Numbered from the stretch's first letter, positions 61,048 to 63,639 are shown. The stretch is 64,000 nt of DNA from a virus (IMGVR_UViG_3300032224_000679:21487-85486), one strand, 5' to 3'. Notes: generated by a model from the letters alone, not told the origin. Program-made: numbers and translations.

Positions 61048-61104
61048 AGGATACTAACAGCAAATTCAAAAATTTCACTGTTAATGAAACCAAAATAGTA
61101 TCCT
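61048..61104 (+). ncRNA. CAGCAA-stem RNA 1 carrying an Asn(GUU)-type anticodon stem-loop
   Basis: aggatacta/tagtatcct stem, ACAGCAA, TTTCA-CTGTTAA-TGAAA. Confidence 0.7.
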
Positions 61105-61133
61105 GTTGTATTTTGAGTGATAAGTAAGAACAT

Positions 61134-61210
61134 GCCCCGGTGACGGAATTGGTATACGTGTTGGTCTTAGAAGCCAAATTTTAGGAGTTCGAGTCTCCTC
61201 TGGGGCACCA
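61134..61210 (+). tRNA. tRNA-Leu(UAG) with a short variable loop
   Basis: Loop CTTAGAA, 77 nt, CCA. Confidence 0.9.
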
Positions 61211-61217
61211 AGTTTAT

Positions 61218-61291
61218 GCGGGGTTCGTATAGTGGTAATACCTTAGCCTTCCAAGCTAATGCTGAGAGTTCGATTCTCTTACCCCGCTCCA
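61218..61291 (+). tRNA. tRNA-Gly(UCC)
   Basis: Loop CTTCCAA, U73, CCA. Confidence 0.95.
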
Positions 61292-61366
61292 TTTTGTAAG
61301 TGTATAACGCATCCTGCTGATAAGACAGGCACTGTTTATGAAAAAGTTGTATGCTTTCAAAATTGA

Positions 61367-61442
61367 CGCGATGTATGGAAGTGGTCATCCGCTTGGTCTC
61401 ATAAGCCAAGAATCGCTGGTTCGAATCCAGCCATCGCAACCA
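61367..61442 (+). tRNA. Initiator-type tRNA-Met(CAU)
   Basis: C1:A72 mismatch, loop CTCATAA, CCA. Confidence 0.85.
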
Positions 61443-61446
61443 TTTT

Positions 61447-61521
61447 GCTTCGTTAACTCAGTGGTAGAGTAGCGCCTTTACACGGCGAATGTCGGGAGTT
61501 CGACCCTCTCACGAAGCACCA
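61447..61521 (+). tRNA. tRNA-Val(UAC)
   Basis: Loop TTTACAC, CCA. Confidence 0.95.
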
Positions 61522-61527
61522 GTTTAC

Positions 61528-61604
61528 CCGTGTGTAGCTCAGCCTGGTAGAGCTCTGCGTTTGGGACGCAGTGGTCGCATGTTCGAATCGTGTCACACGG
61601 ACCA
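61528..61604 (+). tRNA. tRNA-Pro(UGG)
   Basis: Loop TTTGGGA, C1-G72, CCA. Confidence 0.95.
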
Positions 61605-61609
61605 GTTTT

Positions 61610-61722
61610 AGGATACTAACAGCAATGTCTAACGACACGTTGGTTCGATTCCAACATTTGCCTTAGGGCAGATTCGCTCAGCGGTAGAGCAATGGGCTCC
61701 AAGCCCATCGAAAATGTATCCT
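61610..61722 (+). ncRNA. CAGCAA-stem RNA 2 carrying a circularly permuted tRNA-Trp(CCA)-like body
   Basis: aggatac/gtatcct stem; arms in the order T-arm, loop-closed acceptor stem, D-arm, anticodon arm ATGGG-CTCCAAG-CCCAT. Confidence 0.75.
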
Positions 61723-61738
61723 GTTATTTTTGACCATT

Positions 61739-61854
61739 AGGTTCGTTACAGCAAATTTTATAATCTTTTTTGAACAAAGAGGGACTGGGTTTGATTCCCA
61801 GCGCAAAGTTGGTCTTCTGTGTGGTGTACTGGATAGCACGAAAAAAGCGAACCT
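61739..61854 (+). ncRNA. CAGCAA-stem RNA 3 carrying a degenerate circularly permuted tRNA-like body
   Basis: aggttcgt/gcgaacct stem; arms in the order anticodon arm (TCTTT-TTTGAAC-AAAGA), T-arm, weak closed acceptor, D-arm. Confidence 0.65.
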
Positions 61855-61863
61855 GTTATATAT

Positions 61864-61941
61864 GTATGGGTGGCAGAGAGGCCCAATGCAACGGATTGCA
61901 AATCCGTAAAACCGTGAGTTCAAATCTCACCCCATACTCCA
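61864..61941 (+). tRNA. tRNA-Cys(GCA)
   Basis: Loop TTGCAAA, U73, CCA. Confidence 0.95.
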
Positions 61942-61976
61942 ATTTTTAAAACACAAGTACTACAAAGACCTTTCGG

Positions 61977-62135
61977 TTGCGTAGGTTATCGAAAGATGCT
62001 ATACTAGAGACTTAGTTAAGCAATTAACTAAACGTTTCTAAGTGTAGCGAATATACAACACACAGCGGTTGCATATAAATCCAAAAGACGTTACAATAGA
62101 AACAAGTTAAGAAATTAACTAACGCTCTTTAAAAA
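61977..62135 (+). promoter_or_regulatory. Tandem sigma70 promoters with GNRA hairpins and a boxA-like site
   Basis: TTGCGT-17-TATACT, TTGCAT-17-TACAAT, hairpins at 62012-62031 and 62105-62120, CGCTCTTTAAAAA at 62123-62135. Confidence 0.75.
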
Positions 62136-62169
62136 TTTAATTTTTCGTATAGCCCTGTTAACTCAGGGT

Positions 62170-62255
62170 ACTATATGTAAACACGCTTCAGCGGCATAGG
62201 CCGTGTTGGATAGTTCACTGTTTAGTACAGTATCCGAAGTGTATTTTCATATAGT
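62170..62255 (+). ncRNA. Putative structured RNA
   Basis: Closing stem actatatg/catatagt extended by acacgcttc/gaagtgt, with inner hairpins. Confidence 0.4.
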
Positions 62256-62262
62256 GTAAAAC

Positions 62263-62407
62263 TATTATTAAGTGTTATCAGGGTATCGTTATAGGACGCT
62301 ATAACTATCCGGGTCACAGCGGCCGGCGACTGATCCTGACATAACTGCATCGGCTTTGGAACGATAGCTTCGTTACTCCTAAATTTGCACGATAACACTT
62401 AATAATA
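62263..62407 (+). ncRNA. Putative structured RNA with a perfect 17-bp closing stem
   Basis: tattattaagtgttatc/gataacacttaataata enclosing a GC-richer folded core. Confidence 0.55.
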
Positions 62408-62414
62408 TTTTTAT

Positions 62415-62490
62415 GCACGGTTCGTCTATCGGTTTAGGACACTGGCCTTTCACGTCAGTAAGACGGGTTCGATTCCCGTACCGTGTACCA
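62415..62490 (+). tRNA. tRNA-Glu(UUC)
   Basis: Loop CTTTCAC, CCA. Confidence 0.95.
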
Positions 62491-62760
62491 TTTTTGGAGT
62501 CATATCGCCTGGATACTTCCTGAGCAATCAGCACTAGGTCCTGCAACCTTGACTCCACCCTATCCCGGTCCTACTTCTGTTATAGTGGCGTTTGATTAAC
62601 GATAGAGATCCGGTGGCAGAAAACCGTTAGCGAGGCAACCCCTCAGAATCTGATAGGCAGAATTCCAACTGCACACAGACATGAGAATAAATGGAATGGT
62701 CAGAGTAACAGCTCGCGTCAAGGGCTAACGGTGGGAACCAGGTAGCTTGACACTAATTTT

Positions 62761-62847
62761 GGAGATGTAGGAAAATTGGTAACCCCAGTGGACTGTAAAT
62801 CCGCCGTCTTTAAGGCATTGCTGGTTCGACTCCAGCCGTCTCCACCA
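62761..62847 (+). tRNA. tRNA-Tyr(GUA)
   Basis: Loop CTGTAAA, long variable arm, CCA. Confidence 0.95.
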
Positions 62848-62919
62848 AAACGAATAGTGTAGCAATGCACTCAATGTTTGTTAGTTTCAATGGGTAGTAT
62901 AGAAACTATCACAAATTAT

Positions 62920-62995
62920 GCTCTGTTAGCTCAATTGGGAGAGCGCCACCCTGTCACGGTGGAGGCAAGGGGATCGAAACCCCTACGGGGCGCCA
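62920..62995 (+). tRNA. tRNA-Asp(GUC)
   Basis: Loop CTGTCAC, G73, CCA; atypical T-loop ATCGAAA. Confidence 0.9.
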
Positions 62996-63002
62996 AGTTT
63001 AT

Positions 63003-63172
63003 GTCTAGTTGGAAATGAAAGTTAGTAGTGAAACAACACCTTGAACAAGTGTTGCGGAGTGAATACAAGTAGTTGTCCTGACTGTTCGACCCAAGAGGTG
63101 TCAAACCCGTAGATTAAGTTCCTACGCTCTCGCTCAAGGGATGTTGCTGTGTCACAACAGCACTAGGCTCCA
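63003..63172 (+). ncRNA. 170-nt RNA with tRNA-like ends
   Basis: gtctagt/actaggc acceptor-like stem plus TCCA, a T-arm-like hairpin and several inner hairpins. Confidence 0.45.
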
Positions 63173-63178
63173 AGTTAT

Positions 63179-63262
63179 GTGTGTTTAGTATAAATGTTAG
63201 GGCACCATCACACGGGGCATAAAAACCTCGGGATGCAGGTTCGAATCCTGTAACACACGCCA
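63179..63262 (+). tRNA. Atypical or pseudo-tRNA, anticodon undetermined
   Basis: Intact acceptor (gtgtgtt/aacacac, GCCA) and T-arm; 8-nt loop CATAAAAA lacking U33; irregular D region. Confidence 0.6.
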
Positions 63263-63265
63263 AGT

Positions 63266-63487
63266 TTTGTAAGTGTCAGCAAGTGAAGTCACGCTAACAA
63301 GGTTTCTTCGAAGGACCGAGTTAGTAGAAGGCAAATGGGTTCAACTCCCACCCGCGGGGAACCGCGGAGGTCTGTAAAGGAGACTACGCTGGACGGAGCC
63401 CAAGTGATATCCATCGTGTACGAGGTCAGGCTAGGCGGCCGGTAAGTCCTGAATAAATCTACGATAAAAGCGGCGTAGGCTTACAAA
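63266..63487 (+). ncRNA. ~220-nt structured RNA with a terminal stem followed by CAGCAA
   Basis: tttgtaagt/gcttacaaa stem, T-loop hairpin tgggttcaactccca, ccgcgg-ggaa-ccgcgg hairpin. Confidence 0.55.
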
Positions 63488-63503
63488 TTCAATATATGTT
63501 TCC

Positions 63504-63578
63504 GGGGGATTGGTATAATTGGGAACACAGTAGCCTTGCAAGTTACAGTTAGCGGTTCGATTCCGCTATCCTCCACCA
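63504..63578 (+). tRNA. tRNA-Ala(UGC)
   Basis: Loop CTTGCAA, G3:U70, CCA. Confidence 0.95.
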
Positions 63579-63584
63579 AGTTTT

Positions 63585-63639
63585 AGGATGCGTCCAGCAA
63601 ATAAAACAATTAGACTTTTAATCTAAAAATAAGCATCCT
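63585..63639 (+). ncRNA. CAGCAA-stem RNA 4 carrying a Lys(UUU)-type anticodon stem-loop
   Basis: aggatgc/gcatcct stem, CCAGCAA, TTAGA-CTTTTAA-TCTAA. Confidence 0.7.

What the first reader, a model, noticed from the sequence alone, without database searches (positions are those of the whole stretch)
61048..63639. A modular small-RNA family in the tRNA array: constant stem + CAGCAA handle carrying swappable tRNA-derived cargo
Seen: four elements (61048-61104, 61610-61722, 61739-61854, 63585-63639) occupy tRNA-like slots in the array. All share the layout AGG-stem, (A/C)CAGCAA, cargo, A-rich linker, stem-CCT. The stem covaries (aggatac/gtatcct, aggttcg/cgaacct, aggatgc/gcatcct), which argues for selection on RNA structure. 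Cargo differs: bare 5-bp/7-nt anticodon stem-loops with canonical loops (CUGUUAA Asn, CUUUUAA Lys) or whole permuted tRNA bodies. None has a free CCA end, so none can be charged as transcribed. Known: host anticodon nucleases abort phage infection (PrrC and PARIS AriB cut tRNA-Lys); bacterial YrlA Y RNAs join a Ro60-binding terminal stem to a tRNA mimic. Inference: these are protein-tethered tRNA decoys or baits for anticodon nucleases or tRNA-modifying toxins, or a new Y-RNA-like class. No Ro60/TROVE gene is visible in this window.
Basis: partly seen in the sequence, partly recalled or inferred. Interest (0 to 1): 0.93.

Follow-up and report, generated by a model that had tools for sequence, protein, structure and literature searches.

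The report
Phage Y-like RNAs with tRNA-part cargo
Four small RNA genes among this giant phage's tRNA genes share one conserved "handle" and carry imitation tRNA parts; in related phages the same handle sits just in front of a gene for a Ro60-shaped RNA-binding protein, so they are probably that protein's partner RNAs, a pairing I found in no RNA catalogue or paper.

Summary
All four elements have a 7-bp end-joining stem (AGGNNNN/NNNNCCU), three bases, CAGCAA, cargo and an A-rich strand. A covariance model finds exactly these four in the window.

The family is large and almost confined to phages. I found 282 unique copies in viral contigs with 34 or more covarying stem sequences. All lie in tRNA arrays on the tRNA strand.

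Cargo is modular:
- anticodon-loop hairpins (Asn and Lys here);
- tRNA bodies with a loop-closed acceptor stem (two here);
- larger RNAs.

Nothing reaches an Rfam threshold. Sub-threshold matches go to YrlA and to Dictyostelium Class I RNA.

Pfam TROVE is absent, but DUF2828+DUF7788 is present in 16 of 20 handle-bearing records and in all five complete genomes. Its predicted fold matches Ro60 over the full length. In 61 of 76 loci chosen by this protein alone, a handle element ends no more than 40 nt before the gene.

The window's own contig ends about 12-16 kb short of where syntenic relatives carry the gene.

Best reading (0.6): these are Y-RNA-like partners of a divergent phage Ro60, displaying tRNA mimics. 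A decoy role against anticodon nucleases is untested.

This scan has reported the same family before on other DNA. I re-tested the protein link here.

The parts
61048..61104 (+). Element 1 (57 nt). Handle 5' stem 61048-61054, CAGCAA 61058-61063, anticodon-like hairpin 61073-61089 (loop CUGUUAA, Asn-like), A-rich strand 61090-61097, 3' stem 61098-61104, then GUU.
   Evidence: CM R1 70.3 bits. Fold z = -3.5. Lies 6 nt after tRNA-Asn(GUU).
61610..61722 (+). Element 2 (113 nt). Handle stem 61610-61616 with 61716-61722, CAGCAA 61620-61625, small hairpin 61626-61637, T arm 61639-61655, acceptor 61656-61662 with 61667-61673 closed by UUAG, D arm 61676-61690, anticodon arm 61692-61708 (loop CUCCAAG, Trp-like).
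   Evidence: MFE fold gives exactly this structure, z = -5.2. CM R1 34.9 bits. Rfam YrlA partial match 23.5 bits at 61638-61690. Homologues have covarying acceptor stems.
61729..61854 (+). Element 3 (116 nt from 61739) plus its conserved leader. Leader GACCA 61732-61736 is complementary to the acceptor cap loop UGGUC 61810-61814. Handle stem 61739-61745 with 61848-61854, CAGCAA 61749-61754, anticodon-like arm 61764-61780, T arm 61785-61801, acceptor 61802-61808 with 61815-61821 (one A-C mismatch), D arm about 61824-61839.
   Evidence: CM R1 36.1 bits. Fold. Nine homologues keep both the leader GACCA and the loop UUGGUC; one has the double change GACUA/UAGUC. The anticodon-like triplet differs between homologues (GAA, ACG, UAG, GCA, GUA).
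63585..63639 (+). Element 4 (55 nt). Handle stem 63585-63591 with 63633-63639, CAGCAA 63595-63600, anticodon-like hairpin 63610-63626 (loop CUUUUAA, Lys-like). The 3' flank is UUUU instead of the usual GUU.
   Evidence: CM R1 66.0 bits. Fold z = -2.5. Lies 6 nt after tRNA-Ala. A near-identical copy in L078 has the usual GUU flank.

Best explanation
The four elements are small non-coding RNAs of a large, phage-borne family built like Y RNAs. They are transcribed with the tRNA array and lie in tRNA-type slots.

The constant part, which I call the handle, has four pieces: a 7-bp stem that joins the two ends (A-G-G plus four free pairs), three bases, C-N-G-C-A-A on the 5' side, and an A-rich strand on the 3' side. 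It is followed by GUU. I take the handle to be the binding module for a phage-encoded, highly divergent Ro60-like protein. That protein has a DUF2828 helical-repeat ring and a DUF7788 vWA domain with a DxSGS metal site.

The variable part displays pieces of tRNA: a bare anticodon stem-loop (elements 1 and 4) or a tRNA body whose acceptor stem is closed by a loop (elements 2 and 3). By analogy with YrlA, this would be the effector module. It would bring tRNA-binding proteins to the Ro-like ring, or compete with tRNAs for them.

Shown here:
- the family, its covarying stem and the tRNA-like cargo;
- the handle's position directly upstream of the Ro-like gene in relatives;
- the Ro60 fold of that protein (predicted).

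Inferred:
- co-transcription and release by tRNA-processing enzymes;
- binding of the handle by the protein;
- what the RNP does (tRNA quality control or repair, or neutralising tRNA-targeting defences).
For: Family and structure: with 282 unique members and 34 or more stem variants.

Phage restriction. In bacterial and archaeal genomes only 8 of 135 motif hits have a stem, and 3 loci (all contigs from metagenome bins or similar) look genuine. In viral contigs the figure is 265 of 307. In complete genomes the elements lie only in the tRNA region.

Protein link:
- PF11443 is present in 16 of 20 handle-bearing records, 5 of 5 complete genomes and 0 of 14 control genomes.
- Two syntenic relatives of this phage carry it 16 and 20 kb downstream of the 409-aa gene that ends at window 59774, which is beyond the window's end.
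- A handle element ends 20-30 nt before the ORF in most of 15 loci at 40-100% protein identity.
- Reciprocal test: in 80 loci picked by the protein alone, all 129 CM hits are on the gene's strand. In 61 of 76 evaluable loci one ends no more than 40 nt before the ORF. A relaxed pattern gives 64 of 75, 19-41 nt upstream, with the stems still covarying.

Fold. The AF2 model has pLDDT 77.7 and pTM 0.75. The top 12 PDB matches are all Ro60/TROVE over the full length, including Thermus phage phiLo Ro60 (E 1e-8 to 6e-6, TM about 0.5). The best profile hits in the PDB are TROVE proteins (E 0.08). DxSGSM is invariant.

Precedent. Yrl1 and Yrl2 lie just upstream of phage phiLo Ro60 and have a 5'-3' stem flanking a motif-bearing bulge (PMC12135203). 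YrlA carries a tRNA-like T arm, closed acceptor and D arm (PMC4201824). One handle element matches the whole YrlA model at 48.9 bits.

Neighbours of the gene in the closest relative are a PNK-like AAA_33 kinase, an HD phosphohydrolase, an RF-1-domain protein and tRNAs.
Against: - No binding, expression or processing data exist.
- The window's own 85-kb record (24% complete) has no DUF2828 gene, so the link rests on relatives.
- The records compared are kin, so part of the co-occurrence may be shared descent. I did not verify independent lineages myself.
- The handle lacks the CGAA/GNCGAA Ro60-binding motif of known Y RNAs, and no element reaches the YrlA gathering score.
- Pfam TROVE is absent, and the protein's similarity to Ro60 is by predicted fold only (12-15% identity).
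- RNA-library contigs barely cover the elements.
- A handle in the mRNA leader could be a cis-regulatory site rather than evidence for trans-acting partner RNAs.
Confidence: 0.6

Rival explanations
1. Free-standing tRNA-part decoys or sponges. The handle is only a clamp that protects the ends. The RNAs act alone by soaking up anticodon nucleases (PrrC, PARIS AriB, colicin-like, VapC/MazF-type) or tRNA-modifying enzymes that recognise an anticodon loop or a tRNA elbow.
For: Loops copy real tRNA loops, and Lys-UUU is the commonest, followed by Thr-UGU, Ser-GGA, Arg-UCU and Asn-GUU. The same phages also encode true tRNAs with the same loops, so the minis are extras and not replacements. Phage tRNAs are known to counter tRNA-cleaving defences (PMC10264068, PMC11555353).
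Against: This does not explain why a handle element sits directly before the Ro60-like gene in about 80% of loci. It also does not explain why A-G-G, C-N-G-C-A-A and GUU are invariant while the rest of the stem varies freely. Many cargos are not anticodon-like at all. No nuclease was tested.
Confidence: 0.15
2. Permuted or split tRNA genes. RNase P cuts at the 5' side of the closed acceptor, the 3' strand is trimmed and CCA is added. The result is a two-piece, chargeable tRNA-like molecule held together by the handle stem.
For: The 7-bp closed acceptor stems lie next to a canonical T arm. M. smegmatis YrlA with such a stem is cut by RNase P and receives CCA in vivo (PMC4201824). Seven relatives encode N-CCA directly after the 3' acceptor strand.
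Against: About half of the family has no acceptor or T arm at all. Anticodon-like loops in homologues of elements 2 and 3 vary, are often non-canonical (C or U at position 37) or are absent. The four window copies encode no CCA although every true tRNA of the array does. True tRNA-Trp and tRNA-Lys exist in relatives.
Confidence: 0.08
3. cis-acting elements: processing punctuation of the tRNA precursor, or a leader or attenuator controlling the downstream gene, with no trans role.
For: They sit in spacer-like positions of the array. One sits in the 5' leader of the Ro60-like mRNA, 19-41 nt before the start codon.
Against: The cargo is elaborate, conserved and tRNA-shaped with covarying helices. 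Elements are gained and lost between syntenic arrays without disturbing neighbouring tRNAs. Up to eight diverse copies occur per genome.
Confidence: 0.07
4. DNA-level features: miniature inverted-repeat mobile elements, cassette recombination sites, or decaying tRNA pseudogenes.
For: The ends are inverted repeats, and presence or absence varies between relatives.
Against: The elements are strictly strand-specific and asymmetric: CAGCAA occurs only 5', the A-tract only 3', and they always lie on the tRNA strand (129 of 129 co-oriented). The single non-Watson-Crick stem pairs include five U-G against one A-C. Internal RNA helices covary. No target-site duplications were seen.
Confidence: 0.03

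Closest known systems
Bacterial and phage Y RNAs, especially YrlA (Rfam RF02553), with Ro60/Rsr (Chen et al. 2014, PMC4201824; Thermus phage phiLo Ro60 with Yrl1/Yrl2, PMC12135203)
   Same: [quoted passage not shown]
- The module has the order T arm, loop-closed acceptor, D arm.
- The RNA genes lie immediately upstream of a Ro60-fold ring+vWA protein gene.
- There are several different RNAs per genome.
   Different: - The protein is DUF2828+DUF7788, not Pfam TROVE.
- The motif is C-N-G-C-A-A next to the 5' strand, not CGAA/GNCGAA.
- Most copies lie inside tRNA arrays.
- The cargo is swappable and includes bare anticodon stem-loops, non-permuted tRNA-like bodies and 150-275-nt RNAs.
- Scores are below the Rfam threshold.
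Class I RNAs of dictyostelid social amoebae (Rfam RF01414; Kjellin et al. 2021, PMC7919456)
   Same: - Length of about 55-60 nt.
- A short stem joins the ends, starting at a conserved G.
- A conserved motif ending in ACAGCAA lies right after the 5' strand. The positions invariant in Dictyostelia (C6, C9, A10, A11) are also fixed here.
- The interior is variable and AU-rich.
- The 3' end is CUGU.
- Rfam aligns element 1 over the whole model.
   Different: - These are phage RNAs, not amoebal.
- There is no DUSE promoter.
- Scores of 29.4, 16.9 and 22.0 bits fall below the 41.5 gathering score.
- The stem is 7 bp and begins A-G-G.
- Many members carry tRNA-like cargo.
- Class I RNAs are reported as unique to Dictyostelia and bind an RRM protein.
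Circularly permuted tRNA genes and two-piece tmRNA
   Same: The 3' half of the tRNA (T arm, 3' acceptor strand) is encoded upstream of the 5' half. Some relatives have N-CCA, a spacer and then the 5' acceptor strand.
   Different: - There is no bulge-helix-bulge motif.
- The window copies have no encoded CCA.
- There is no tag reading frame and no G3-U70.
- The anticodon arm is dispensable.

Membership tests
YrlA / Y RNA (RF02553) | Reaches the Rfam gathering score (69 bits) | tested here: not met
   Window best is 23.5 bits, partial (model positions 30-81), at 61638-61690. The best relative, L067:3655-3779, scores 48.9 bits over the full length, E = 6.5e-8.
YrlA / Y RNA (RF02553) | Encoded next to a Ro60 (TROVE+vWA) gene | tested here: inconclusive
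   Pfam TROVE is present in 0 of 20 records. A Ro60-fold DUF2828+DUF7788 gene directly follows a handle element in 61 of 76 loci and occurs in 5 of 5 complete genomes. It is not present in the window's truncated record.
YrlA / Y RNA (RF02553) | Ro60-binding helix with the CGAA / GNCGAAN0-1G motif | tested here: not met
   By inspection of the sequences, the handle carries C-N-G-C-A-A in that position instead.
YrlA / Y RNA (RF02553) | tRNA-like domain: T arm, loop-closed acceptor stem, D arm | tested here: met
   Elements 2 and 3 have it, as do 44 or more relatives with covarying acceptor stems. It is absent from elements 1 and 4.
YrlA / Y RNA (RF02553) | Bound by Ro60 in vivo or in vitro | not testable with these tools
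   Needs EMSA or RIP.
Dictyostelium Class I RNA (RF01414) | Reaches the Rfam gathering score (41.5 bits) | tested here: not met
   29.4 bits (61049-61105), 16.9 bits (63586-63640) and 22.0 bits (L124). Scores of other relatives were cut from the listing; all are below 44.8 bits.
Dictyostelium Class I RNA (RF01414) | Short end-joining stem, 11-nt motif after the 5' strand, 3' CUGU | tested here: met
   The full-model alignment shows the stem, CUAACAGCAA and CUG. The 3' flank G-U-U is conserved at 98%, 91% and 90%. Element 4 lacks the CUGU tail.
Dictyostelium Class I RNA (RF01414) | Dictyostelid gene with a DUSE promoter about 60 nt upstream | tested here: not met
   The host record is a phage with UvsX, UvsY and gp32. 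The elements lie 5-6 nt after tRNAs.
tRNA (RF00005) | Cloverleaf with a free acceptor end, detected by Rfam or ARAGORN | tested here: not met
   No ARAGORN call falls on any element. The best Rfam tRNA score across elements 2 and 3 is 21.6 bits, below 29.
Ro60 / TROVE protein family (for the partner protein in relatives) | Helical-repeat ring plus a vWA domain with a MIDAS site | tested here: met
   Foldseek's top 12 matches are all Ro60, aligned over the full length. DxSGSM is invariant. There are weak VWA_2 hits. This rests on a predicted fold only, and the Pfam TROVE model does not match.

The most novel reading that the evidence does not exclude
The phage handle RNAs and the unexplained Class I RNAs of Dictyostelium are the same kind of molecule. 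Both would be partner RNAs of DUF2828-type Ro60-like proteins, a branch of the Ro60/Y-RNA system spread across phages and eukaryotes. This would give Class I RNAs a candidate protein partner and function.
Probability: 0.1. Interest if true: 0.9.

Novelty: new variant of a known kind. Interest (0 to 1): 0.8.

Why it matters
If the pairing is real, large aquatic phages carry a whole toolkit of Y-like RNAs. One constant handle for a divergent Ro60 would be fused to interchangeable imitations of tRNA parts.

This would do three things:
- It would assign a function to the uncharacterised DUF2828/DUF7788 proteins.
- It would widen the Ro60/Y-RNA system well beyond the TROVE family.
- It would give a tractable model for what the tRNA-like module of Y RNAs is for. 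Candidate roles are quality control or repair of the phage's 25-40 tRNAs, or capture of host tRNA-targeting defence nucleases.

The handle is also a natural, compact scaffold for displaying RNA modules. Its likeness to Dictyostelium Class I RNAs offers a testable lead on RNAs whose function has been open for about 20 years.

Tried and rejected
- Megablast of 60960-63990 against deposited phage genomes found no match.
- Rfam at gathering thresholds on the window and on ten relatives' loci found only tRNAs and one permuted tmRNA in L143. The large cargos at L124:3600-4200 matched nothing.
- Pfam TROVE was negative in 20 records. Had I stopped there I would have wrongly dismissed the Ro60 link. 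DUF2828 was tried only after reading earlier notes of this scan.
- The bacterial and archaeal genome scan gave almost only chance hits.
- An eighth stem pair between position 8 and the base before the 3' strand shows no consistent pairing.
- A pseudoknot between CAGCA and the 3' tail UGUU is not supported. The natural variants CCGCAA and CUGCAA keep the tail GUUG without compensation.
- Comparing G-U with A-C mismatches as a strand test gave 5 against 1, which is too few to carry weight.
That RNA has its own covarying stem and a UCAGCAAG motif and is better treated as a separate, related-looking family.
- Expression is inconclusive. Four lake metatranscriptome runs, available only as contigs, give little cover on the elements. 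One 151-nt contig covers 61634-61714 with 7 differences at depth 5. Contigs cannot show RNA ends, and DNA carry-over is not excluded.
- Literature searches for phage tRNA-like decoys, permuted tRNAs in phages and DUF2828 found no description of this family.
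Full report
WHAT THE WINDOW IS. The window covers bases 21487-85486 of an 85,486-bp IMG/VR virus record that CheckV rates 24% complete. 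The phage is therefore probably about 350 kb. It encodes UvsX, UvsY and gp32 homologues, several radical-SAM enzymes and a small RNA-polymerase omega-like protein. From 59818 to the contig end there is a tRNA array on the + strand.

THE OBSERVATION. AGG-N7-CAGCAA occurs four times, all on the + strand, at the stated coordinates. Chance predicts 0.74, and 0 of 100 shuffles reached 4. Each copy is closed by a perfect 7-bp complement ending in CCU.

Elements 1 (61048-61104) and 4 (63585-63639) contain only a 5-bp/7-nt hairpin, with loops CUGUUAA and CUUUUAA. Element 2 (61610-61722) folds, unconstrained, into six helices: terminal stem, small hairpin, T arm, 7-bp acceptor closed by UUAG, D arm and anticodon arm (z = -5.2). 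Element 3 (61739-61854) has the order anticodon-like arm, T arm, closed acceptor, D arm.

All four lie 5-16 nt after the preceding tRNA or element, in the same spacing as tRNA-to-tRNA junctions.

A LARGE, PHAGE-BORNE FAMILY. Of 307 motif hits, 265 have the complementary 3' stem. With a slightly relaxed motif there are 282 unique elements.

Conservation across the 241 strict members:
- 34 different stem sequences occur.
- The first three pairs (A-U, G-C, G-C) are fixed.
- The 3' flank reads G (98%), U (91%), U (90%).
- An A-rich tract precedes the 3' strand.

In an alignment of 106 short members every cell of the seven pairs is a standard pair, and 126 cells differ on both sides from the commonest pair. 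The covariation score is 0.445 against 0.073 in shuffles, reached by 0 of 500, and it vanishes when partners are slid. Natural motif variants (CCGCAA, CUGCAA, CAGCAU, CAGCAC) give the consensus C-N-G-C-A-W.

A covariance model of the short members finds exactly the four window elements at 70.3, 66.0, 36.1 and 34.9 bits.

The same pattern scanned over one genome per bacterial and archaeal species gave 135 motif hits. Only 8 had a stem, and only 3 loci look genuine, all on contigs from metagenome bins or similar. In five complete phage genomes the elements lie only in the tRNA region, on the tRNA strand, at 2-8 per genome beside 23-40 tRNAs.

THE CARGO IS MODULAR AND tRNA-DERIVED. Of 119 short members, 81 contain a perfect 5-bp/7-nt hairpin (shuffles: mean 12.5, maximum 22). 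Of these, 63 have U at loop position 2 and a purine at position 6 (shuffles: mean 2.2, maximum 7). The triplets in the anticodon position are UUU 16, UGU 8, GGA 7, UCU 4, then GUU, UGA, GCA, GCU and GUA at 3 each.

The loops are identical to those of the phages' own true tRNAs, for example CUUUUAA, CUGUUAA and CUUGUAA. The stems, however, are AU-rich, with one G-C pair of five in both window copies, whereas true tRNA anticodon stems average 60% G+C. Minis co-occur with true tRNAs of the same anticodon, so they are additions and not replacements.

Medium-sized members fall into four architectures:
- T arm, closed acceptor, D arm: 34, plus 3 large ones.
- The same followed by an anticodon arm: 3, including element 2.
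- Anticodon arm, T arm, closed acceptor, D arm: 7 found by the classifier. Element 3 has this order too, but the classifier filed it under the first architecture.
- A non-permuted tRNA-like body in which the handle stem takes the acceptor's place: 14.

Acceptor stems covary between homologues, and the anticodon arm is variable or absent. Seven members encode N-CCA directly after the 3' acceptor strand.

In the element-3 type, a conserved leader GACCA just upstream of the handle is complementary to the acceptor cap loop UUGGUC. One homologue has the double change GACUA/UAGUC, which supports a long-range pairing.

Fifty-five members carry 136-275-nt cargos that match nothing in Rfam.

Between syntenic relatives (71-77% identity in the adjacent 409-aa protein) elements are gained, lost or exchanged at tRNA-type slots.

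COMPARISON WITH RNA CATALOGUES. Nothing reaches a gathering score. Two sub-threshold matches are informative.
- Rfam's Dictyostelium Class I model aligns element 1 end to end at 29.4 bits (threshold 41.5). The alignment covers the stem, CUAACAGCAA and the 3' CUG. Element 4 scores 16.9 bits.
- The YrlA model matches the T arm, acceptor and D arm of element 2 at 23.5 bits. It matches the whole of a relative's element at 48.9 bits, E = 6.5e-8, against a threshold of 69.

THE PROTEIN LINK. Pfam TROVE is absent from 20 handle-bearing records, including five complete genomes.

Earlier notes of this scan reported the same handle next to a DUF2828 gene in other phages and in giant viruses, so I tested that here.
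- PF11443 is present in 16 of 20 records, in all 5 complete genomes and in 0 of 14 control genomes.
- The window's own record lacks it. In two syntenic relatives, however, the gene lies about 16 and 20 kb downstream of the 409-aa gene. That corresponds to about 12-16 kb beyond the window's end.
- In 15 loci spanning 40-100% protein identity, a handle element usually ends 20-30 nt before the ORF. It is often the last of a trio of about 150-170 nt, 210-275 nt and 52-69 nt.
- For the reciprocal test I collected 80 viral loci using the protein alone; more than 586 exist. The handle CM gave 129 hits, all on the gene's strand. In 61 of 76 evaluable loci one ends no more than 40 nt before the ORF.
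- A relaxed pattern gives 64 of 75, 19-41 nt upstream and just before the Shine-Dalgarno sequence. Stems still differ and still pair.

The protein combines DUF2828 and DUF7788, with weak VWA_2 similarity and an invariant DxSGSM. An AlphaFold2 model has pLDDT 77.7 and pTM 0.75. Its twelve best PDB matches are all Ro60/TROVE proteins aligned over the whole length: Thermus phage phiLo Ro60, Xenopus and human Ro60, and Deinococcus Rsr (E 1e-8 to 6e-6, TM about 0.5). A sequence profile's best PDB hits are also TROVE proteins, at E = 0.08.

In the closest relative the gene's neighbours are a PNK-like AAA_33 kinase, an HD phosphohydrolase, an RF-1-domain protein and tRNAs.

MOST LIKELY MECHANISM. Known Y RNAs have a stem joining their ends next to a conserved motif that Ro60 binds, plus a second module that engages other proteins. 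In YrlA that module mimics the T arm, acceptor and D arm of tRNA, and the genes lie beside rsr (PMC4201824). In Thermus phage phiLo two Y-like RNA genes lie just upstream of the phage Ro60 gene, and mutating their CGAA motif weakens binding (PMC12135203).

The handle family has the same logic with different parts. I therefore read elements 1-4 as partner RNAs of the phage's divergent Ro60, made from the tRNA-array transcript and carrying tRNA-part mimics as effector modules.

Which effectors they engage is not shown. Candidates are tRNA-processing or repair enzymes, PNPase, and host tRNA-targeting nucleases. The predominance of Lys-UUU loops fits the decoy idea, but it is not evidence for it.

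Because closed 7-bp acceptors can be cut by RNase P and receive CCA (PMC4201824), and some relatives encode CCA, maturation of some members into two-piece molecules remains possible.

LIMITS.
- All functional steps are inferred.
- The protein gene is not in this record.
- The compared phages are related, so co-occurrence counts are not independent events.
- Metatranscriptome contigs give almost no information on RNAs this small.

NOVELTY. I found no description in Rfam 15 or in the searchable literature. DUF2828 appears only in passing in five unrelated papers. The same family has been reported repeatedly by this scan on other DNA. I confirmed the central claim independently on my own set of loci.

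Noticed in passing
window 63260-63503: A conserved RNA of about 225 nt with its own covarying terminal stem (UUGUAAGU/ACUUACAA; the changes A>G with U>C in L104 and U>C with A>G in L011). It is followed by G-UCAGCAAG, a T arm and a GGAA-capped hairpin. Homologues occur in 16 loci and there is no Rfam match. Contigs of three lake metatranscriptome studies pile up on it to summed depths of 5,000-50,000, far above the neighbouring tRNAs.
   Followed up: partly
window 62491-62760: A 270-nt non-coding stretch between tRNA-Glu and tRNA-Tyr, conserved at 77-84% in ten viral loci. Depth in metatranscriptome contigs is very high over 62592-62693. It has no Rfam match.
   Followed up: partly
window 62996-63178: An RNA-like stretch of about 180 nt that is 98% identical in L078. 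ARAGORN calls an implausible permuted tmRNA across 62754-63313, and Rfam's permuted-tmRNA model gives only 21 bits nearby. A genuine permuted tmRNA (107.5 bits) exists in relative L143:4343-4640.
   Followed up: no
window 61292-61366: A 75-nt spacer element conserved at 88-89% in eight relatives. It begins with the same UUGUAAGUGU as the 63260 RNA but lacks CAGCAA.
   Followed up: no
window 60744-60959: A 71-aa ORF matching RNA polymerase omega/Rpb6 (Pfam E = 8.6e-12), just upstream of tRNA-Asn inside the tRNA island.
   Followed up: no
window 63179-63259: A weak, 81-nt tRNA-like match (Rfam 34.8 bits) that ARAGORN does not call. It may be an aberrant or intron-bearing tRNA.
   Followed up: no
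window 61729-61738 with 61809-61814: The leader GACCA upstream of element 3 pairs with the acceptor cap loop UGGUC. The pairing is conserved in nine homologues with one compensatory double change (L135). The loop is an anti-ACCA sequence, so it could also pair with tRNA 3' ends.
   Followed up: partly
L270 (G007) 16030-16105; L271 (G003) 13366-13442: Relatives' arrays contain tRNAs with CUA and UCA anticodons. These are suppressor-like, reading UAG and UGA, and hint at stop-codon recoding in some of these phages.
   Followed up: no
L287:309-2273 (closest relative, upstream of the Ro60-like gene): An AAA_33 (PNK-like) kinase, an HD phosphohydrolase and a 124-aa RF-1-domain (ArfB/peptidyl-tRNA-hydrolase-like) protein are interleaved with tRNAs. 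This is an RNA-repair and ribosome-rescue flavoured neighbourhood.
   Followed up: partly
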